Assembly: GCA_964016885.1 (NCBI GenBank)
Contig: OZ024740.1
Span: forward strand, 166,036,001 to 166,100,000
Length of the DNA: 64,000 nt
Source of the DNA: Eledone cirrhosa
Taxonomy: Eukaryota
Direction: 5' to 3'
The notes below the pieces were generated by a model. It was not told the origin of the DNA. It searched no databases and saw only the letters and a program-made list of their open reading frames with translations. Numbering within the stretch: position 1 is the first letter of the stretch; each line of letters opens with the position of its first letter. The translations under genes were made by a program, and so were the position numbers. Shown here in pieces: positions 25,362 through 45,366 of this stretch.

Positions 25362-26072
25362 TGCTTTCAGCGTATTTTTGAATAAATAAATTTTTAGACT
25401 GAGAGTGGGGTTTAGAACCCTCAGAGAAATGGAAAAAGATGAGTATTGACGTACATGGGAGTCGAACCCACATCTTTGGTTATCCCGACCTCTGTGCTAC
25501 CATTACACCAACACATCACCCATCTCCTTCCATTCAAATTAGAAGCTACATTCTTAGCAAGTAAATTACAAGTAAGTATGTTTTGAAACAGTGAGCGAGT
25601 TTGAAATTAGAAATATAAGCGTTCACCGTATTTTTGACTAAATAAATTTTTAGCCTGAGAGTGGGGTTTAGAACCCTCAGAGAAATGGAAAAAGATGAAT
25701 ATTGACGTACATGAGAGTCGAACCCACTCTCAGGCTAAACATTTATTTAGTCAAAAATACGGTGAAAGCTTATATTTCTAATTTCAAACTCGCTCACTGT
25801 TTCAAAACATACTTACTCGTCATTTACTTGCTAAGCATGTAGCGTCTAATTTGAATGGAAGGAGATAGGTGATGTGTTGGTGTAATGGTAGTACAATGGT
25901 CTGGATAACCAAAGATGTGGGGTTCACTCCCATGTACGTCAATACTTATCTTTTTCCATTTCTCTGAGGGTTCTAAACCCCACTCTCAGGATAAACATGT
26001 ATTTAGTCAAAGATACGGTGAAAGCTTATATTTTTAATTTCAAACTCGCTCACTGTTTCAAAACATACTTAC
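25362..26072. mobile_element. 256-bp tRNA-like-containing unit in tandem plus inverted (divergent) arrangement, flanked by (TA)n
   Basis: CGTATTTTTG..AGAACCCTCAGAG recurs at 25371 and 25627. Orientation flips at CCCAC (25723-25727). Each arm holds about 1.4 units. Confidence 0.88.
25447..25517 (-). pseudogene. tRNA-like cloverleaf (Pol III A/B boxes) inside the repeat unit; second copy on + at ~25871-25941
   Basis: GATGTGT-TG-GTGT AATGGTA GCAC-..GGT CGGGATA ACC..-GTGGG TTCGACT CCCAT-GTACGTC-A. Many wobbles or mismatches, so unlikely to be a functional tRNA. Confidence 0.7.
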
Positions 26073-27415: not shown

Positions 27416-27759
27416 TAATAATTATAATGGCTGCCCTATAGTGACACCAGCTGGTTTAAGCTTTTGTTCAATTTTGCACATTTACACCGATCGTGTAAAA
27501 TACTCTCATCTGTTTCCCCAACTGACAAAGCAGTTTCTGCAGCGGTCAAACTTATTTTATCTCGTGGAACGGGCTCTTAAACATGTTCCTAAATTGTTCT
27601 TTTTTCCATCTCTTCGAAAAATTGGCATTCAAAGTGGCTAGTTTAAAATATTGTGGAGAGCGTGGCAGTCACAGAGGCCAAGCTATCCATACCACATACA
27701 GTAGCAGAGCCAACATCCGAACCTTGCCTAATGGTAGTGAACACAATAAACCTACTATA

Positions 27760-29385
27760 TAGAGAGACAAAAACAATATGAACAGCAGAGATTGTTCACT
27801 GCAATCCGAAAATATTCTTTAGAACACTGTCAGGGGAACATATTTTAGAAGTTGCAGCATAACAAAGATGCAAAATGGATAAATGAAGTGGAAGATAATT
27901 TATCTAACGAACCAAAATAGACATTGGAAGGAACTTCAAAGGAAGCCGTTTTAAAGTAAGTTAGGAAAATTCTAAACTGAAAATCAGCTGGAGAGAATAG
28001 AATCAAAGGATTCTGATCGAAACAAATTTGAAGTGTTCATTCAAGGCTACGGTAGCACAAGGAGAATTTTCAAGTTGGATGTCGAAGGAAATACAACTAA
28101 TGAAAGATAAACGGAACGTTCTGTTAGTTCTAAACTACAAACCGATTGCTTGCTTGAATTTGCTTGGAAAGATGTTGACTGGAATGTTTGCTGCAAAAGT
28201 GTGTGATCAGATTCTTCGGGGGACAAAAGAGAATATTGCTGTTGACACGCCGATGATGAATAATTACAGAAAACGTCAAAATAATTTCGACGTGGCTTGG
28301 GTAGACTCCAAGAAAGCATTTGACGTGATCATTCATTGTCCACTGGTGTTGTTGCGATGGAGTTTGGTATCGCAAAGTGGGCAACCCGTACTATGAAGAG
28401 AGGTAGGCATGTTTATATAGGGATGAAATTGAGTTACCAGATGCAGAGTCGATTGGCCACCCCGATAAAAGTGGCTACAAATATCAGGGCATTTTGGAGC
28501 TTGACAAAGTTCTAAATGAGAAGATGAAAGGAAATGTGAAGGAAGTCTGTCTGAATAGGTCTAAATATGTTACAAACACCGAAAGTCAATGGAGAAAACT
28601 GAAATACCGTTATCAATGTCTGGGTTTTACCGGTTATTGGATATAGTGCGGTTATTTTGAGTGGGACTAAAGAAGAAATAGAGAAGTTGGATAGGTGTAA
28701 TAACATATTTAACAATAGTGCATCGTACCCGAAGTAAAATTTGATCAGACTCTGTACATCACGGAATGTAAGGCGTCGAGGACTTGTAAGTTTGAAAAAT
28801 TACATGGCTAACGAATGTAGGTCCTTAGACTCATATTTGGCCAGTAGTAAAAAGAAAAGTTACCAAAAGCAGAGGCCTATGCATTGAACCCATTGAAAGT
28901 AAAGGAAAATGCAAACAGAGCCTTTTGGCTGAGAAACTGACCACACGAGGGAGTTTGGAAGTGCATAGTCAATTTGAAAGAAAAATGAAGGAAATAAAAT
29001 TAGGACCTTCATGGAATTGGTTAAAAAATGATATTAAGATACAGAAAGTATATTAATAGCTGCTCAAGAGCAAGCCCTAAACATAAAATCGATAAGGTAT
29101 ATGACCTAGATGAAAAAAAAGTGGAGGATATGTGGGAAAAATTTGGAAAGTGAGTGCCAGCACATACTTGCGCCGAGGGAATATAAAATGCGCCACGATA
29201 AAGTGTGTTTCTCCCTTCATTAGTCTTTATGCAAGAAATATGGTTTTGCAACAACTGAGAAATAGTTGTAGCACAAACTAGAGAGGGTCCTTGAAAATCA
29301 GACTGAAACTCTTGTGGGACTTTACAATCCTGACAGAGAGAGCACTTGAAAATACAAGGCCAGACATAACTTTGGTGGAGAAATA
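27760..29385 (+). mobile_element. Decayed R4/Dong-clade non-LTR retrotransposon (RT + restriction-like endonuclease)
   Basis: NYKPIACLNLLGKMLT, RGTKE, AWVDSKKAFD, RHDKV and KLLWDFTILT..TRPDITLVEK, with many stops and frameshifts. Confidence 0.78.
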
Positions 29386-29641
29386 TCTGTTGTCGCATTT
29401 AAAACGACTGTCTGGTTCTTTGGTTTTTGGTGCTCTTGCATGGATATATGTTAGGTTTTCAAATGGGAGTAAATTGCTATGGGCACTGAATTTCTTCCTG
29501 TAAATTAAAACAACATAAAAACTCAAATTCGTATTTTTTTAAGTCGTCACTTATCAACGTAACAATTTTCATTGCAAAATTAACAAGAGAAAAACAAAAC
29601 AATAGAATACTATATAATAAGCAAATATTTTTTTCTTGCAG

Positions 29642-30829: not shown

Positions 30830-31830
30830 TCTATCATCGGTGCCACCATCCGGCGCTGTGCAGAACTAATCTGTGATGTCAGTTTCGACATGCCGTCGAA
30901 ACCCCCAGCGAGGTTCGGTGGCCTCGGCCTCCGATTCGCTTCGGATCTGGCACTACCTTTCCTCAATCTTCCCCAGTTGCAACATCATCAGCAGGGTCCT
31001 CAGCAAGACGGCCGTACCTAGCATGACCCGATACCTCGAGCTGGCTTTGGCCGACTGGACAGGCGAAGGGCTCTCTGTCCCCCGTAACCGTGACGACATC
31101 AAATGCAGCTCTTCCTTCCGGCGGATTGAGTCTGGCTCGGACAAACACCACTCCGCCTGCCTCCAATCCGCTTCACAGCCAAACAGCGGTGCGTGGGTCA
31201 ATTCAGTGTCCTCTTAATCAAATGTTACCCTGTTTGATGACGCGTGCTATCGCATTAGAATGTGAGCAACCTAATTGGCGTTGTGGGGCTTTTGTTGACA
31301 AGTTTGACCTGCACCCACTGTCATGCCACCAGAGCGATGGCTGGTTACCCCGACAAGAAGCTCTCAATGACATATTGAAAAGAAGACTGCATGCAGCATG
31401 GTTCCTATCACAACTGGAGCCAGCAGGCCCCGATTGCGGAGATGGCAAGCGCCCTACGGTATTACCCTCTTCCCATTCGAAGGAGTTAAATTCTTCATGT
31501 CGGATGCCACATGTTGTGACACGTTTTCCACCTCGAAAATAGTTGCTTTGTCCACAAACTGCGGTACTGCGGCCTACAATGCAGAGGAAGACAACAAAAT
31601 ATCGGGGTTTGTCAAACCACTTCCTCTTCGAACTGGTCACCGTCGAGACCTCAGGCGAACTCAGACCTCATACTGCGGAGATCCTCTGCAAGATCGGAAC
31701 GTTATCAGCCCGTCTAAGGAAGGAGAACCTGCGAGTTGGAGTGGCTGTTGTAGCGAGTGTCACTGGACACTGTCCGCAAAAAGACTTCTGCAGCTTTGTT
31801 TGGGGCGGCGGCAGCTCTGAAAAATAATAC
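30830..31830 (+). mobile_element. 5'-truncated, decayed CRE-clade non-LTR retrotransposon (zinc knuckle + RLE)
   Basis: GC-rich island. Contains SGAWVNS, CGAFVDKFDLHPLSC, ALNDILKR, LEPAG..GDGKRP(Y)GITLFPF..DATCCDT and VETSG across frameshifts. Confidence 0.8.
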
Positions 31831-31859
31831 TCGTGTATGGATCTGTATATATATATATA

Positions 31860-32304
31860 TAAATAAGTAGAAGGGGTTTTAAATTTGTTTGAAGTCCAAC
31901 GAATATAAATGGTTATAACTGATTTAGAGCACCCAACAGTTTACTCGAGTAAATATTCAATGATATCAAATAAGTGGAAACTATATTTATAAAACCATAT
32001 TTATTTTATTATATATATTTCAAGGGTACCAAGACACATCGATACGCTTTCATCAGATAAAATACAAAGTTTGTTTTATAAATAGAGACATACCCATGAA
32101 AATCATACCTTATCGGTTGGAAATTAACTTGATATCCAGTGAATTTCTAAACGATAAGGTATGATTTTCATGGGTATGTCTCTATTTATAAAACAAACTA
32201 TGTATTTTATCTGATGAAAGCGTATCAATGTGTCTTGGTACCCTTGACATATATATAATAAAATAAATATCGTTTTATAAATATAGTTTCCATTTATTTA
32301 ATAT

Positions 32305-32310
<6 letters not shown>
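31860..32310. mobile_element. Foldback element (family B) with divergent hammerheads, flanked by (TA)n
   Basis: Inverted arms span ~31957-32310, centred near 32134. The minus motif at 32002-32064 has an intact core; the plus-arm copy has GACA instead of GAAA. Confidence 0.87.
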
Positions 32311-32437: not shown

Positions 32438-32595
32438 TGATATTAAATAAATGGAAACTATATTTATAAAACCATATTTATTTCGTTATATATATTTCAG
32501 GGATATCATATTAACAATACGTTATGCCATCTTCAGACAAAATACAATATAAACAGTCTTATAAATAAATAGATACGACATACCTTTCAATAACC
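32438..32595 (-). mobile_element. Single-arm diverged family B copy with a hammerhead motif
   Basis: Homologous to the family B arm. Minus strand 32479-32544 reads TATTTTGT-CTGAAGA-...-GAAA-TATATA-TA-ACGAAATA. Confidence 0.75.
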
Positions 32596-32625
32596 TTGCA
32601 TTTGGCAGGTTGATTTGGCAGGTTG

Positions 32626-32963
<338 letters not shown>

Positions 32964-35586
32964 TTGGAATAAATGCTCTGAAATAGCGATATATATGTGA
33001 ATATAGACACAGAATATTCGAAAATATTCTGTATGTTTATAATAAACATTTTGAAGACCTAATCGCTATAGAATAGAATACGTCACGTATTACAATTAGA
33101 TTCTCGATAAAAGCAAGGGAAGTAAGTCTACGCGTTTCATTCTTGTTAGAATTCATCAGGACTACATATCCAGTGCTTTTATCGAGAATGACACAGCTAG
33201 AGACTTATAGAATACTTAGCTGTGTACAGGAACTGGTTTGAAAGAGCGGTTGCCGGTCCGGCAGAAATTAGAAATTGGAATAAATGCTCTGAAATAGCGA
33301 TATATATGTGAATATAGACACAGAATATTCGAAAATATTCTGTATGTTTATAATAAACATTTTGAAGACCTAATCGCTATAGAATAGAATACGTCACGTA
33401 TTACAATTAGATTCTCGATAAAAGCAAGGGAAGTAAGTCTACGCGTTTCATTCTTGTTAGAATTCATCAGGACTACATATCCAGTGCTTTTATCGAGAAT
33501 GACACAGCTAGAGACTTATAGAATACTTAGCTGTGTACAGGAACTGGTTTGAAAGAGCGGTTGCCGGTCCGGCAGAAATTAGAAATTGGAATAAATGCTC
33601 TGAAATAGCGATATATATGTGAATATAGACACAGAATATTCGAAAATATTCTGTATGTTTATAATAAACATTTTGAAGACCTAATCGCTATAGAATAGAA
33701 TACGTCACGTATTACAATTAGATTCTCGATAAAAGCAAGGGAAGTAAGTCTACGCGTTTCATTCTTGTTAGAATTCATCAGGACTACATATCCAGTGCTT
33801 TTATCGAGAATGACACAGCTAGAGACTTATAGAATACTTAGCTGTGTACAGGAACTGGTTTGAAAGAGCGGTTGCCGGTCCGGCAGAAATTAGAAATTGG
33901 AATAAATGCTCTGAAATAGCGATATATATGTGAATATAGACACAGAATATTCGAAAATATTCTGTATGTTTATAATAAACATTTTGAAGACCTAATCGCT
34001 ATAGAATAGAATACGTCACGTATTACAATTAGATTCTCGATAAAAGCAAGGGAAGTAAGTCTACGCGTTTCATTCTTGTTAGAATTCATCAGGACTACAT
34101 ATCCAGTGCTTTTATCGAGAATGACACAGCTAGAGACTTATAGAATACTTAGCTGTGTACAGGAACTGGTTTGAAAGAGCGGTTGCCGGTCCGGCAGAAA
34201 TTAGAAATTGGAATAAATGCTCTGAAATAGCGATATATATGTGAATATAGACACAGAATATTCGAAAATATTCTGTATGTTTATAATAAACATTTTGAAG
34301 ACCTAATCGCTATAGAATAGAATACGTCACGTATTACAATTAGATTCTCGATAAAAGCAAGGGAAGTAAGTCTACGCGTTTCATTCTTGTTAGAATTCAT
34401 CAGGACTACATATCCAGTGCTTTTATCGAGAATGACACAGCTAGAGACTTATAGAATACTTAGCTGTGTACAGGAACTGGTTTGAAAGAGCGGTTGCCGG
34501 TCCGGCAGAAATTAGAAATTGGAATAAATGCTCTGAAATAGCGATATATATGTGAATATAGACACAGAATATTCGAAAATATTCTGTATGTTTATAATAA
34601 ACATTTTGAAGACCTAATCGCTATAGAATAGAATACGTCACGTATTACAATTAGATTCTCGATAAAAGCAAGGGAAGTAAGTATACGCGTTTCATTCTTG
34701 TTAGAATTCATCAGGACTACATATCCAGTGCTTTTATCGAGAATGACACAGCTAGAGACTTATAGAATACTTAGCTGTGTACAGGAACTGGTTTGAAAGA
34801 GCGGTTGCCGGTCCGGCAGAAATTAGAAATTGGAATAAATGCTCTGAAATAGCGATATATATGTGAATATAGACACAGAATATTCGAAAATATTCTGTAT
34901 GTTTATAATAAACATTTTGAAGACCTAATCGCTATAGAATAGAATACGTCACGTATTACAATTAGATTCTCGATAAAAGCAAGGGAAGTAAGTCTACGCG
35001 TTTCATTCTTGTTAGAATTCATCAGGACTACATATCCAGTGCTTTTATCGAGAATGACACAGCTAGAGACTTATAGAATACTTAGCTGTGTACAGGAACT
35101 GGTTTGAAAGAGCGGTTGCCGGTCCGGCAGAAATTAGAAATTGGAATAAATGCTCTGAAATAGCGATATATATGTGAATATAGACACAGAATATTCGAAA
35201 ATATTCTGTATGTTTATAATAAACATTTTGAAGACCTAATCGCTATAGAATAGAATACGTCACGTATTACAATTAGATTCTCGATAAAAGCAAGGGAAGT
35301 AAGTCTACGCGTTTCATTCTTGTTAGAATTCATCAGGACTACATATCCAGTGCTTTTATCGAGAATGACACAGCTAGAGACTTATAGAATACTTAGCTGT
35401 GTACAGGAACTGGTTTGAAAGAGCGGTTGCCGGTCCGGCAGAAATTAGAAATTGGAATAAATGCTCTGAAATAGCGATATATATGTGAATATAGACACAG
35501 AATATTCGAAAATATTCTGTATGTTTATAATAAACATTTTGAAGACCTAATCGCTATAGAATAGAATACGTCACGTATTACAATTA
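32964..35586 (-). repeat. Left arm of the 311-bp hammerhead-containing tandem array (8 full units + 135 bp)
   Basis: TTGGAATAAATGCTC recurs at 32964, 33275, 33586 ... 35452 (period 311). Hammerheads lie on the minus strand with left ends at 33122, 33433, 33744, 34055, 34366, 34677, 34988 and 35299. Confidence 0.97.
33122..33165 (-). ncRNA. Minimal type I hammerhead ribozyme (representative of 8 minus-strand copies)
   Basis: Reverse complement of GTAAGTCTACGCGTTTCATTCTTGTTAGAATTCATCAGGACTAC; identical to the plus-arm motif. Confidence 0.92.
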
Positions 35587-38500
35587 CACTGGATATGTAG
35601 TCCTGATGAATTCTAACAAGAATGAAACGCGTAGACTTACTTCCCTTGCTTTTATCGAGAATCTAATTGTAATACGTGACGTATTCTATTCTATAGCGAT
35701 TAGGTCTTCAAAATGTTTATTATAAACATACAGAATATTTTCGAATATTCTGTGTCTATATTCACATATATATCGCTATTTCAGAGCATTTATTCCAATT
35801 TCTAATTTCTGCCGGACCGGCAACCGCTCTTTCAAACCAGTTCCTGTACACAGCTAAGTATTCTATAAGTCTCTAGCTGTGTCATTCTCGATAAAAGCAC
35901 TGGATATGTAGTCCTGATGAATTCTAACAAGAATGAAACGCGTAGACTTACTTCCCTTGCTTTTATCGAGAATCTAATTGTAATACGTGACGTATTCTAT
36001 TCTATAGCGATTAGGTCTTCAAAATGTTTATTATAAACATACAGAATATTTTCGAATATTCTGTGTCTATATTCACATATATATCGCTATTTCAGAGCAT
36101 TTATTCCAATTTCTAATTTCTGCCGGACCGGCAACCGCTCTTTCAAACCAGTTCCTGTACACAGCTAAGTATTCTATAAGTCTCTAGCTGTGTCATTCTC
36201 GATAAAAGCACTGGATATGTAGTCCTGATGAATTCTAACAAGAATGAAACGCGTAGACTTACTTCCCTTGCTTTTATCGAGAATCTAATTGTAATACGTG
36301 ACGTATTCTATTCTATAGCGATTAGGTCTTCAAAATGTTTATTATAAACATACAGAATATTTTCGAATATTCTGTGTCTATATTCACATATATATCGCTA
36401 TTTCAGAGCATTTATTCCAATTTCTAATTTCTGCCGGACCGGCAACCGCTCTTTCAAACCAGTTCCTGTACACAGCTAAGTATTCTATAAGTCTCTAGCT
36501 GTGTCATTCTCGATAAAAGCACTGGATATGTAGTCCTGATGAATTCTAACAAGAATGAAACGCGTAGACTTACTTCCCTTGCTTTTATCGAGAATCTAAT
36601 TGTAATACGTGACGTATTCTATTCTATAGCGATTAGGTCTTCAAAATGTTTATTATAAACATACAGAATATTTTCGAATATTCTGTGTCTATATTCACAT
36701 ATATATCGCTATTTCAGAGCATTTATTCCAATTTCTAATTTCTGCCGGACCGGCAACCGCTCTTTCAAACCAGTTCCTGTACACAGCTAAGTATTCTATA
36801 AGTCTCTAGCTGTGTCATTCTCGATAAAAGCACTGGATATGTAGTCCTGATGAATTCTAACAAGAATGAAACGCGTAGACTTACTTCCCTTGCTTTTATC
36901 GAGAATCTAATTGTAATACGTGACGTATTCTATTCTATAGCGATTAGGTCTTCAAAATGTTTATTATAAACATACAGAATATTTTCGAATATTCTGTGTC
37001 TATATTCACATATATATCGCTATTTCAGAGCATTTATTCCAATTTCTAATTTCTGCCGGACCGGCAACCGCTCTTTCAAACCAGTTCCTGTACACAGCTA
37101 AGTATTCTATAAGTCTCTAGCTGTGTCATTCTCGATAAAAGCACTGGATATGTAGTCCTGATGAATTCTAACAAGAATGAAACGCGTAGACTTACTTCCC
37201 TTGCTTTTATCGAGAATCTAATTGTAATACGTGACGTATTCTATTCTATAGCGATTAGGTCTTCAAAATGTTTATTATAAACATACAGAATATTTTCGAA
37301 TATTCTGTGTCTATATTCACATATATATCGCTATTTCAGAGCATTTATTCCAATTTCTAATTTCTGCCGGACCGGCAACCGCTCTTTCAAACCAGTTCCT
37401 GTACACAGCTAAGATTCTATAAGTCTCTAGCTGTGTCATTCTCGATAAAAGCACTGGATATGTAGTCCTGATGAATTCTAACAAGAATGAAACGCGTAGA
37501 CTTACTTCCCTTGCTTTTATCGAGAATCTAATTGTAATACGTGACGTATTCTATTCTATAGCGATTAGGTCTTCAAAATGTTTATTATAAACATACAGAA
37601 TATTTTCGAATATTCTGTGTCTATATTCACATATATATCGCTATTTCAGAGCATTTATTCCAATTTCTAATTTCTGCCGGACCGGCAACCGCTCTTTCAA
37701 ACCAGTTCCTGTACACAGCTAAGTATTCTATAAGTCTCTAGCTGTGTCATTCTCGATAAAAGCACTGGATATGTAGTCCTGATGAATTCTAACAAGAATG
37801 AAACGCGTAGACTTACTTCCCTTGCTTTTATCGAGAATCTAATTGTAATACGTGACGTATTCTATTCTATAGCGATTAGGTCTTCAAAATGTTTATTATA
37901 AACATACAGAATATTTTCGAATATTCTGTGTCTATATTCACATATATATCGCTATTTCAGAGCATTTATTCCAATTTCTAATTTCTGCCGGACCGGCAAC
38001 CGCTCTTTCAAACCAGTTCCTGTACACAGCTAAGTATTCTATAAGTCTCTAGCTGTGTCATTCTCGATAAAAGCACTGGATATGTAGTCCTGATGAATTC
38101 TAACAAGAATGAAACGCGTAGACTTACTTCCCTTGCTTTTATCGAGAATCTAATTGTAATACGTGACGTATTCTATTCTATAGCGATTAGGTCTTCAAAA
38201 TGTTTATTATAAACATACAGAATATTTTCGAATATTCTGTGTCTATATTCACATATATATCGCTATTTCAGAGCATTTATTCCAATTTCTAATTTCTGCC
38301 GGACCGGCAACCGCTCTTTCAAACCAGTTCCTGTACACAGCTAAGTATTCTATAAGTCTCTAGCTGTGTCATTCTCGATAAAAGCACTGGATATGTAGTC
38401 CTGATGAATTCTAACAAGAATGAAACGCGTAGACTTACTTCCCTTGCTTTTATCGAGAATCTAATTGTAATACGTGACGTATTCTATTCTATAGCGATTA

Positions 38501-39804
38501 GGTCTTCAAAATGTTTATTATAAACATACAGAATATTTTCGAATATTCTGTGTCTATATTCACATATATATCGCTATTTCAGAGCATTTATTCCAATTTC
38601 TAATTTCTGCCGGACCGGCAACCGCTCTTTCAAACCAGTTCCTGTACACAGCTAAGTATTCTATAAGTCTCTAGCTGTGTCATTCTCGATAAAAGCACTG
38701 GATATGTAGTCCTGATGAATTCTAACAAGAATGAAACGCGTAGACTTACTTCCCTTGCTTTTATCGAGAATCTAATTGTAATACGTGACGTATTCTATTC
38801 TATAGCGATTAGGTCTTCAAAATGTTTATTATAAACATACAGAATATTTTCGAATATTCTGTGTCTATATTCACATATATATCGCTATTTCAGAGCATTT
38901 ATTCCAATTTCTAATTTCTGCCGGACCGGCAACCGCTCTTTCAAACCAGTTCCTGTACACAGCTAAGTATTCTATAAGTCTCTAGCTGTGTCATTCTCGA
39001 TAAAAGCACTGGATATGTAGTCCTGATGAATTCTAACAAGAATGAAACGCGTAGACTTACTTCCCTTGCTTTTATCGAGAATCTAATTGTAATACGTGAC
39101 GTATTCTATTCTATAGCGATTAGGTCTTCAAAATGTTTATTATAAACATACAGAATATTTTCGAATATTCTGTGTCTATATTCACATATATATCGCTATT
39201 TCAGAGCATTTATTCCAATTTCTAATTTCTGCCGGACCGGCAACCGCTCTTTCAAACCAGTTCCTGTACACAGCTAAGTATTCTATAAGTCTCTAGCTGT
39301 GTCATTCTCGATAAAAGCACTGGATATGTAGTCCTGATGAATTCTAACAAGAATGAAACGCGTAGACTTACTTCCCTTGCTTTTATCGAGAATCTAATTG
39401 TAATACGTGACGTATTCTATTCTATAGCGATTAGGTCTTCAAAATGTTTATTATAAACATACAGAATATTTTCGAATATTCTGTGTCTATATTCACATAT
39501 ATATCGCTATTTCAGAGCATTTATTCCAATTTCTAATTTCTGCCGGACCGGCAACCGCTCTTTCAAACCAGTTCCTGTACACAGCTAAGTATTCTATAAG
39601 TCTCTAGCTGTGTCATTCTCGATAAAAGCACTGGATATGTAGTCCTGATGAATTCTAACAAGAATGAAACGCGTAGACTTACTTCCCTTGCTTTTATCGA
39701 GAATCTAATTGTAATACGTGACGTATTCTATTCTATAGCGATTAGGTCTTCAAAATGTTTATTATAAACATACAGAATATTTTCGAATATTCTGTGTCTA
39801 TATT

Positions 39805-39815
<11 letters not shown>
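35587..39815 (+). repeat. Right arm of the 311-bp hammerhead-containing tandem array (13 full units + partial), inverted relative to the left arm
   Basis: CACTGGATATGTAGTCCTGATG recurs at 35587, 35898 ... 37142, 37452 (one unit is 310 bp) ... 39629. The unit is the reverse complement of the left-arm unit. 14 hammerheads lie on the + strand. Confidence 0.97.
35597..35640 (+). ncRNA. Minimal type I hammerhead ribozyme (representative of 14 plus-strand copies)
   Basis: GTAGTC-CTGATGA-ATTC(TAACAA)GAAT-GAAA-CGCG-TA-GACTTAC: stem I, intact CUGAUGA/GAAA core, 4-bp stem II, palindromic CGCG stem III, and a GUA cleavage triplet (cut after 35633). Confidence 0.92.

Positions 39816-45366
<5,551 letters not shown>

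What the first reader, a model, noticed from the sequence alone, without database searches (positions are those of the whole stretch)
32964..39815. Retrozyme-like array: 22 near-identical hammerhead ribozymes in 311-nt monomers, in two divergent arms anchored in (TA)n
Seen: a 311-bp unit repeated about 8.4 times on the minus strand and about 13.6 times on the plus strand. Each unit has a complete minimal type I hammerhead (GUAGUC CUGAUGA AUUC-UAACAA-GAAU GAAA CGCG UA|GACUUAC), and there is no coding capacity. Established: tandem monomers of a few hundred nt with one type I hammerhead each define metazoan non-LTR retrozymes, which are processed into circular RNAs. Minimal hammerheads with a palindromic stem III (here CGCG) are typical of Penelope-like element repeats and cleave as dimers. 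Inference: this is a very young, possibly active retrozyme family producing 311-nt linear or circular RNA and mobilised in trans by a Penelope-type RT. I do not know of a described cephalopod example with this giant inverted layout.
Basis: partly seen in the sequence, partly recalled or inferred. Interest (0 to 1): 0.95.

Follow-up and report, generated by a model that had tools for sequence, protein, structure and literature searches.

The report
Two-armed Penelope-type retrozyme arrays
A small non-coding repeat with a self-cutting ribozyme motif has recently spread to well over a thousand places in this animal genome as head-to-head arrays, and the copies look as if two reverse transcriptases ran round one circular RNA, which makes a long-proposed but untested route of retrotransposition directly testable.

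Summary
Confirmed: two divergent arms (8.4 and 13.6 units of 311 nt), 22 hammerhead cores, two differences in all. It is one of roughly 1,500 young insertions (14,554 units). Of 97 mapped, 89 are head-to-head; in 83 of 83 complete ones one arm ends at monomer position 126-140 and the other at 164-173. This is the known Penelope-like-element (PLE) 'tail', here with 8-12 bp target duplications in (TA)n. Arrays are internally uniform, both arms share a haplotype in 71 of 73 (chance 0.11), and 12 insertions carry sample-private variants fixed in every unit. Fixed changes are 11/26 A>G against 7/88 among single-unit changes. Best reading: a non-autonomous PLE (retrozyme) whose circular monomer is copied by rolling-circle reverse transcription from both nicked target strands, sometimes after A-to-I editing. 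Not shown: cleavage, circles, the partner PLE. Retrozymes, PLE inversions and tails, and the circle model are published; I found the strict end pairing and shared-template evidence in none of my ten searches. The scan noted a similar, ribozyme-free layout in another genome (e1-7881736).

The parts
32629..32964 (.). Left (TA)n target microsatellite
   Evidence: 165 of 166 outer ends of complete insertions have (TA)3 within 14 nt
32963..35586 (-). B arm: 8.44 units, starts at monomer position 31 (inner end) and ends at position 166 (outer end, site B). Monomer numbering: position 1 = window 35634
32963..32988 (-). PLE-type 'tail': monomer 141-166, present at the outer end of this arm only
   Evidence: tail described in PMC8557442 and PMC11167929
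35586..35587 (.). Head-to-head junction of the two 5'-truncated arms; no microhomology here, a few bases of overlap or insertion at many other loci
35587..39815 (+). A arm: 13.6 units, starts at monomer position 265 and ends at position 140 (site A)
35597..35640 (+). First type I hammerhead motif of the A arm: stem I, CUGAUGA core, stem II, GAAA, self-complementary ACGCGU stem III, predicted cut after 35633
   Evidence: sequence; Rfam HH9 alignment below cut-off; two copies co-fold through an intermolecular 6-bp stem III
35634..35944 (+). One monomer, cut site to cut site (predicted 311-nt linear or circular RNA; most genomic copies are 310 nt)
35647..35662 (+). 3' strand of the 16-bp stem (monomer 14-29) that pairs with monomer 249-265 (35882-35898) and would hold the cut ends together
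35713..35753 (+). Two hairpins (monomer 80-96 and 97-120) just upstream of site A, kept by compensatory changes in two sister families
   Evidence: 62 of 64 cells paired, 3 pairs changed on both sides; only 4 sequences
35766..35773 (+). Internal (AT)4 tract = priming site A (monomer 133-140), able to pair with the (TA)n target
   Evidence: A ends: 43 at 131, 26 at 140, 15 others between 126 and 139
35815..35830 (+). Motif downstream of site B (monomer 182-197) conserved in sister families; candidate protein-binding or promoter element (inference)
39808..45366 (.). Right (TA)n target microsatellite (5.5 kb); its first 8 bases are shared with the element's site A tract

Best explanation
A non-autonomous parasite of Penelope-like retroelements (a non-LTR retrozyme) in a recent burst. 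SHOWN by sequence: about 1,500 insertions in (TA)n, head-to-head arms, one arm ending at site A and the other about 35 nt further on at site B, 8-12 bp target duplications, both arms of one haplotype. INFERRED: arrays are transcribed; neighbouring hammerheads pair through their palindromes and cut out 310/311-nt monomers; the 16-bp stem holds the ends for ligation into a circle that cannot easily cut itself. A PLE RT/GIY-YIG protein, probably a dimer, nicks both strands of (TA)n 8-12 nt apart. One 3' end pairs with the RNA's (AU)4 tract (site A), the other starts almost without pairing at site B. Each RT runs round the same circle (mean about 5 turns, about 1.5 kb; longest 19.4), the two cDNA ends are joined by end-joining, and second strands are filled in. 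Some circles were A-to-I edited first, so that every unit of the new array reads G. My odds: PLE-driven insertion 0.95; circular monomer as the usual template 0.75; editing as source of the A>G excess 0.65.
For: Architecture: 89 of 97 insertions multi-armed and divergent; 83 of 83 complete ones A+B, including 13 of 13 chosen without regard to ends. Target duplications of 8-12 bp in 9 of 19 insertions with an interrupted flank; 7 of the 10 misses have the interruption in the element's own variant end and 3 have it 9 or more bases out; mismatched control 11 of 342. A purified PLE protein nicks and extends both strands and starts at two internal sites that bound the tail (PMC11167929). An autonomous Poseidon-like element in this genome shows the same layout with a 39-nt tail (L169). 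One monomer as template: 28 haplotypes among 83 well-covered arrays, each array uniform; arms concordant in 71 of 73, chance 0.108; 14 variants in 12 insertions seen nowhere else in the sample yet fixed in all 4-20 units covering them; of 84 single-unit substitutions 4 recur, none at the same arm and offset; 1 of 87 inner junctions is shared, and that one is a fold-back in the long stem on two different haplotypes. Not a cut linear RNA: 8 of 174 inner ends lie at the cut site, 8.4 expected; no single-unit indel at positions 308-5 in about 900 passages over it. RNA-level footprint: A>G at 11 of 26 fixed sites against 7 of 88 single-unit changes (p 1e-4); A>G:T>C 11:3 against 7:16 (p 0.007); A>G:C>T 11:1 against 7:17 (p 0.001), so tolerance of G-U pairs alone does not explain it; 21, 260 and 277 A>G recur on 3-4 backgrounds. 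Ribozyme under selection: 0 fixed changes in the 16 core positions, 9 elsewhere in the 44-nt domain (p 0.01), while 7 of 84 single-unit changes hit the core. Template switches between whole haplotypes inside an arm (L113, L077).
Against: No cleavage or circle was observed. The hammerhead is non-canonical (no G10.1-C11.1 pair; most copies have a U-U mismatch there) and is far below Rfam cut-offs. In vitro, PAc used uncut RNA and did not need its ribozyme (PMC11167929); 8 of 9 Xenopus retrozyme dimers did not cleave (10.64898/2026.07.22.740005). No partner PLE with matching ends was found among the families sampled. 'Private' variants are private only within 97 of about 1,500 insertions. The A>G sites are not significantly more often paired than other As (9 of 11 against 58 of 93). 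Three insertions are mosaic (L077, L113, L120), and four error-rich or mis-segmented ones (L022, L047, L138, L140) were left out of the single-unit and arm-concordance counts. Arm lengths depart from a pure exponential (KS p 0.015). Most loci come from the first 245 Mb of one contig and were picked by their B end.
Confidence: 0.7

Rival explanations
1. Same PLE machinery and double priming, but the usual template is a long uncut multimeric transcript of an existing array; circles are rare or absent and the ribozyme is a passenger.
For: PAc uses unprocessed RNA in vitro; weak-looking hammerhead; source arrays are long enough (arms to 19.4 units); a seamless cut-site junction is also expected of an uncut multimer.
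Against: Needs another way to fix a new variant in all 4-20 units of both arms (12 insertions); single-unit changes are not passed on at matching offsets; editing of a multimer should give scattered, not fixed, A>G; no inherited inner junction among 87; the start of one arm bears no relation to the end of the other, unlike twin priming on one linear RNA; the catalytic core is spared among fixed changes.
Confidence: 0.17
2. Short PLE-type insertions were expanded afterwards at the DNA level (unequal exchange, gene conversion or DNA circles), as proposed for Xenopus retrozyme satellites.
For: Local amplification is the route favoured in 10.64898/2026.07.22.740005; conversion can homogenise arrays; repeated single changes in L063 and L051 may be conversion tracts.
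Against: Strand-asymmetric A>G among fixed changes; oppositely oriented arms share private variants; arms of less than one unit to 19 units with uniform inner phases (chi-square p 0.46); only 88 single-unit substitutions in 282 kb, leaving little time for expansion.
Confidence: 0.09
3. Assembly or library artefact (fold-back reads, collapsed repeats).
For: Perfect inverted tandem arrays beside kilobases of (TA)n are hard to assemble; L022 is error-rich.
Against: Same layout at 89 loci on many contigs with different junctions, flanks and haplotypes; target duplications; asymmetric A and B ends, which a fold-back cannot make; older sister families with the same layout.
Confidence: 0.01

Closest known systems
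Metazoan non-LTR retrozymes (Cervera and de la Pena 2020, PMC7229834; Li, Clavereau and Pollet 2026, 10.64898/2026.07.22.740005)
   Same: 150-450-nt, low-GC, non-coding tandem units with one type I hammerhead each; co-occur with PLEs; proposed to be copied from circular RNA into tandem cDNA by a PLE RT.
   Different: Term searches in those two papers found no treatment of inverted arms or (TA)n targeting, and none of tails in the preprint. Here every insertion is a discrete two-armed event with paired start sites and a target duplication. No sequence match to an autonomous pLTR was found here, whereas 24 of 57 Xenopus families had a match to known elements.
EN+ Penelope-like elements (Poseidon/Penelope, Neptune, Hydra, Naiad; PMC8557442, PMC3846280, PMC11167929)
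   Same: 5' truncation, partial tandems, head-to-head inverted copy, 30-40-bp tail at one end, 8-10-bp target duplications, (TA)n targeting, hammerhead upstream of the start sites.
   Different: No ORF; the unit is ten times shorter, so each arm holds many units; the tail is obligatory on exactly one arm (83 of 83) instead of 'optional'; site A can pair with the target, whereas the PAc start sites were reported as not homologous to it.
Non-autonomous Chlamys elements such as MRC1 (PMC8557442, passage)
   Same: [quoted passage not shown]
   Different: Most Chlamys lack hammerheads, and their parasites share 3' sequence with an autonomous family; green algae, not animals.
L1 twin priming (recalled, no call)
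   Same: Both target strands prime cDNA, giving an inverted 5' arm joined by microhomology inside a target duplication.
   Different: In L1 the two arms copy adjacent, non-overlapping parts of one linear RNA; here each arm repeats the whole unit many times and the phases are unrelated.

Membership tests
Metazoan non-LTR retrozyme | Tandem units of 150-450 bp, GC below 50% | tested here: met
   311 nt, 108 of 311 G+C
Metazoan non-LTR retrozyme | One type I hammerhead motif per unit | tested here: met
   22 cores in the window, 21 with intact stem I; core spared among fixed variants; below Rfam cut-off
Metazoan non-LTR retrozyme | No coding capacity, no LTR structure | tested here: met
   longest frame 59 aa within the tandem; ends mapped
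Metazoan non-LTR retrozyme | Target duplications longer than 4 bp when visible | tested here: met
   8-12 bp in 9 insertions, control 11 of 342; not readable at the window locus (pure TA flanks)
Metazoan non-LTR retrozyme | Self-cleavage of monomer or dimer transcripts | not testable with these tools
   needs in vitro transcription
Metazoan non-LTR retrozyme | Accumulates as circular RNA | not testable with these tools
   needs northern blot or RNase R RT-PCR; only indirect genomic footprints here
PLE-mobilised non-autonomous element | 5'-truncated partial tandems with an adjacent inverted 5'-truncated copy | tested here: met
   89 of 97 insertions; of the 8 single arms 2 stop at assembly gaps
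PLE-mobilised non-autonomous element | 30-40-bp tail at one end | tested here: met
   ends at 126-140 and 164-173, modes 131/140 and 166; 83 of 83
PLE-mobilised non-autonomous element | Microsatellite or AT-rich target | tested here: met
   165 of 166 ends
PLE-mobilised non-autonomous element | End sequence shared with an autonomous PLE in the same genome | tested here: inconclusive
   no match in one Hydra-like, about five Neptune-like and two Poseidon-like families sampled; these are a small part of the 10,596-36,184 first-look candidates; clade names rest on recalled motifs
Autonomous PLE | ORF with RT and GIY-YIG endonuclease | tested here: not met
PLE-type minimal hammerhead (PMC4209133) | Palindromic helix III able to form a dimer | tested here: met
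   6-bp intermolecular helix in co-fold, -70.5 against 2 x -31.3 kcal/mol
PLE-type minimal hammerhead (PMC4209133) | Conserved G10.1-C11.1 pair | tested here: not met
   A-U in the window, U-U in 54 of 97 insertions with the variant called fixed
Rfam hammerhead clan CL00010 | Score at or above the gathering threshold | tested here: not met
   17.8 bits against 52; none at threshold

The most novel reading that the evidence does not exclude
Each of about 1,500 arrays is a written record of one reaction: a PLE protein dimer primes from both strands of a staggered cut, one subunit at each of two fixed sites on a single circular RNA, and both roll round it; ADAR edits made on that circle are written into the germ-line genome in every unit, so RNA editing drives the evolution of a ribozyme-bearing replicon with a genomic phase. 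This would account for PLE pseudo-LTRs, inversions and tails in one mechanism. A further, much less likely extension (about 0.07) is recent spread of the same circle to other species.
Probability: 0.5. Interest if true: 0.87.

Novelty: new variant of a known kind. Interest (0 to 1): 0.74.

Why it matters
How PLEs make their tandem, inverted and tailed insertions is called unresolved in PMC8557442, and copying of retrozyme circles into tandem cDNA has been a proposal since 2014-2020 (PMC4209133, PMC7229834). Because this unit is short and the burst is recent, every insertion shows many turns of the template, which lets the genome itself test the models: strict use of one start site per strand, one template for both arms, and a strand-asymmetric A>G footprint. 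It supplies a 311-nt substrate, defined start sites, a defined target and intact candidate PLE proteins for reconstitution. It has also added about 4.5 Mb of long inverted repeats to this genome.

Tried and rejected
Rfam at gathering score: no hammerhead; E-value mode only HH9 at 17.8 bits. Partner search failed: the Hydra-like element of L040/L152 (821-aa frames, own hammerhead, different ends), Neptune-like families from 30 GIY-YIG loci plus three long-ORF loci and two Poseidon-like families share no end sequence with the unit. A pattern on the conserved downstream motif gave 45 hits; the 12 fetched were all sister-family repeats, not a coding element. L080 and L168 place sister-family units next to one Neptune-like 3' UTR; chance co-targeting of (TA)n explains this as well as partnership. 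Pfam did not recognise the L040 protein. Sequencing runs: no RNA holder listed; this says nothing on expression. A ligation scar at the cut site: only two G>T at position 1 among 88 single-unit changes, too few. Clustering of inner ends at stem bases, suspected from the first loci, was not borne out (p 0.46). A and B arm lengths do not differ (p 0.47) or correlate (rho 0.18, p 0.11). The bacterial promoter scan is irrelevant to this host. Rejected: classical linear twin priming (phases unrelated), repeated jumping between cut monomers (no junction indels, no ends at the cut site), MITE or DNA transposon (ends asymmetric), protein-coding repeat. Supplements not seen: Fig. S9 of PMC7229834, Fig. 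S2 of PMC11167929, and all supplements of the bioRxiv preprint, which may show inverted or tailed retrozyme insertions.
Full report
OBSERVATION. The window holds two arrays of a 311-nt unit: 32963-35586 on the minus strand (8.44 units) and 35587-39815 on the plus strand (13.6 units), head to head, between (TA)n tracts. There are 22 hammerhead cores; the units differ at two places only. I number the unit from the predicted cut (position 1 = window 35634). The hammerhead is type I with a self-complementary six-base stem III; two copies co-fold through it. A 16-bp stem closes the domain (z -6.0). It is below all Rfam cut-offs and lacks the G-C pair at the base of stem II, so activity is not assured. 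No frame exceeds 60 codons.

THE FAMILY. A DNA search of the own genome gave 394 matches from 39 of 116 candidates, many 100% identical and in the same inverted layout. An exact pattern for the commonest outer junction has 995 hits; a pattern in the hammerhead has 14,554. At 9.8 units per complete insertion that is about 1,500 insertions and 4.5 Mb. I fetched 98 stretches; two held no array, three pairs were merged, some held two insertions. With the window this gave 97 insertions: 16 from the top DNA hits, 4 from A-end patterns, the rest from B-end patterns on the first 245 Mb of contig C1.

ARCHITECTURE. 89 of 97 are multi-armed with both 3' ends facing out; 8 are single (2 at gaps). In the 83 with both outer ends in view, one arm ends at 126-140 (site A, at the unit's own (AT)4 tract) and the other at 164-173 (site B); none is AA or BB, also in the 13 chosen without regard to ends. 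165 of 166 ends run into (TA)n. Where flanks are interrupted, 9 of 19 show an 8-12-bp duplication; in 7 of the others the interruption belongs to the element's variant end and in 3 it lies 9 or more bases out; mismatched pairs give 11 of 342. Inner ends are spread evenly round the unit (p 0.46), mostly with 0-6 bases of overlap or a short insertion. Arms average about 5 units; the longest is 19.4. This is the PLE signature: partial tandems, an inverted 5'-truncated copy and a 30-40-bp tail at one end (PMC8557442, passages; PMC3846280, passages, with 8-10-bp duplications; PMC8969392, passage). A purified PLE protein nicks and extends both strands, is predicted to be a dimer, and starts at two internal sites that bound the tail (PMC11167929, parts 1-2 of 4); that study saw no difference in start site between strands. 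The strict one-of-each rule here says the two starts belong to one event. An autonomous Poseidon-like element of this genome has the same layout.

WHAT WAS THE TEMPLATE. Arrays differ from each other but are uniform inside: 28 haplotypes among 83 well-covered arrays. Both arms agree in 71 of 73 (chance 0.108); 14 variants in 12 insertions occur nowhere else in the sample yet fill every unit that covers them. Single-unit changes (88 substitutions in 282 kb; L022, L047, L138, L140 left out as error-rich or mis-segmented) are not inherited at matching offsets. One inner junction of 87 is shared, a fold-back in the long stem on two haplotypes. So the template passes through a one-unit bottleneck and is then repeated. 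It is not a cut linear RNA: inner ends are not enriched at the cut site (8 of 174, 8.4 expected) and the junction shows no single-unit indel. A covalent circle fits. Three insertions are mosaic: in L113 the B arm switches haplotype after two turns, in L077 after four, and in L120 the arms differ; template switching, or editing during copying, would explain them.

RNA-LEVEL FOOTPRINT. Among 26 fixed substitution sites (polarised to the majority, position 3 left out) 11 are A>G on the ribozyme strand, against 7 of 88 single-unit changes (p 1e-4). A>G outnumbers T>C 11:3 and C>T 11:1, the reverse of the single-unit ratios (p 0.007 and 0.001). Three of the sites recur on 3-4 backgrounds. DNA mutation is strand-symmetric, and selection for pairing would favour C>T as much as A>G, so A-to-I editing of the template is the best reading (inference). 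None of the 11 has a 5' G (15 of 93 As do) and 9 are paired (58 of 93 As are); neither is significant. That editing is widespread in animals and heavy in cephalopods I take from search listings only (PMC5625713, PMC9068888) and recall; the host was not identified here.

SELECTION ON THE RNA. Fixed changes in the hammerhead fall at the free core position, loop II, the first pair of stem II and stem I (with a bulge removal and a compensated variant), never on the 16 core positions (p 0.01). Two older sister families keep the two hairpins before site A by compensatory changes (four sequences only, 6 of 500 shuffles as high) and keep the tail and a motif behind it.

PARTNER. Not found. The genome has young Hydra-like, Neptune-like and Poseidon-like PLEs with long intact frames that also end in (TA)n, but none sampled shares end sequence with the unit. 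Clade labels rest on recalled motifs.

COMPARISON AND NOVELTY. Unit size, composition and hammerhead make it a non-LTR retrozyme (PMC7229834, passages and Discussion), and a 2026 preprint already argues that these are non-autonomous PLEs (10.64898/2026.07.22.740005, parts 1-3 of 5 and term search), though it favours local amplification for the tandems. Copying of circles into tandem cDNA was proposed in PMC4209133 (passages) and PMC7229834. Cleavage and circles, two defining features, are untested here, so membership rests on sequence features. In ten searches I found no report of two-armed retrozyme insertions with obligatory paired start sites, of arm-shared private variants, or of editing footprints in them; subscription papers, repeat databases and the supplements named above were not seen. 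The scan's own notes hold nothing on this genome or sequence and one similar ribozyme-free layout elsewhere (unchecked, no support).

VERDICT. Real, ordinary in kind, unusual in what it lets one test. New variant of a known kind; interest 0.74; best mechanism 0.7.

Noticed in passing
window about 31850-32310 and 32440-32600: Directly left of the array lie short two-armed insertions of a different hammerhead-bearing PLE-type family (stem III palindrome of TA repeats); further copies at about 18841 (-), 18912 (+) and 48263 (-).
   Followed up: partly
L080:2436-2870, L153-L156; L120:2440-3260, L067, L157-L168: Two older sister families (about 315 and 321 nt; 2,755 first-look candidates for the first) share the long stem, two hairpins, AT tract, tail and two-armed layout, but have different hammerheads; one has a longer palindromic stem III and a U3-A8 core pair in place of C3-G8.
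   Followed up: partly
L040:1100-6401, L152, L059: Young Hydra-like PLE with intact 821-aa frames (150 of 150 scored hits 97-100% identical), its own hammerhead and staggered ends in (TA)n.
   Followed up: partly
L169: Very young Poseidon-like PLE, 887-aa frame, head-to-head arms; one arm is just over one full unit and carries a 39-nt tail that overlaps the ORF start; no hammerhead found by my pattern.
   Followed up: partly
L079-L108, L149-L151: About five Neptune-like families ending in (TA)n; several carry hammerhead-like motifs with a U3-A8 core.
   Followed up: partly
L168:1-600: A sister-family unit is fused in the same orientation to the middle of a Neptune-like 3' UTR through a short inverted piece: a template switch between the two RNAs, or a later deletion.
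   Followed up: no
runs X4, X5 laid on window 35587-35897: Two runs labelled with other organisms, from two studies, each hold one closed 310-nt circular contig of a single haplotype at depth 26 and 34; 20 listed rows from 16 studies hold half the words or more. Cross-contamination from a high-copy source is the simplest reading; transfer is not excluded.
   Followed up: partly
L077, L113, L120: Mosaic insertions: the haplotype changes once within an arm or differs between arms, as expected of a template switch or of editing during copying.
   Followed up: partly
L023, L031: Single-armed insertions of almost exactly 6 units that begin at the internal AT tract and end at site A, as if the second target strand paired with the cDNA's own AT tract instead of priming a second arm.
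   Followed up: no
monomer position 119 (window 35752): Most copies have A here, opposite a C in hairpin 2; the window's subfamily has G. An A opposite C is a favoured ADAR site (recalled).
   Followed up: no
window 25447-25517 (-) and 25871-25941 (+): Two tRNA-like matches in inverted orientation, probably SINE heads.
   Followed up: no
window about 27750-29400 and 30840-31830: Decayed stretches that look like non-LTR retrotransposon fragments (by eye; the second is GC-rich).
   Followed up: no
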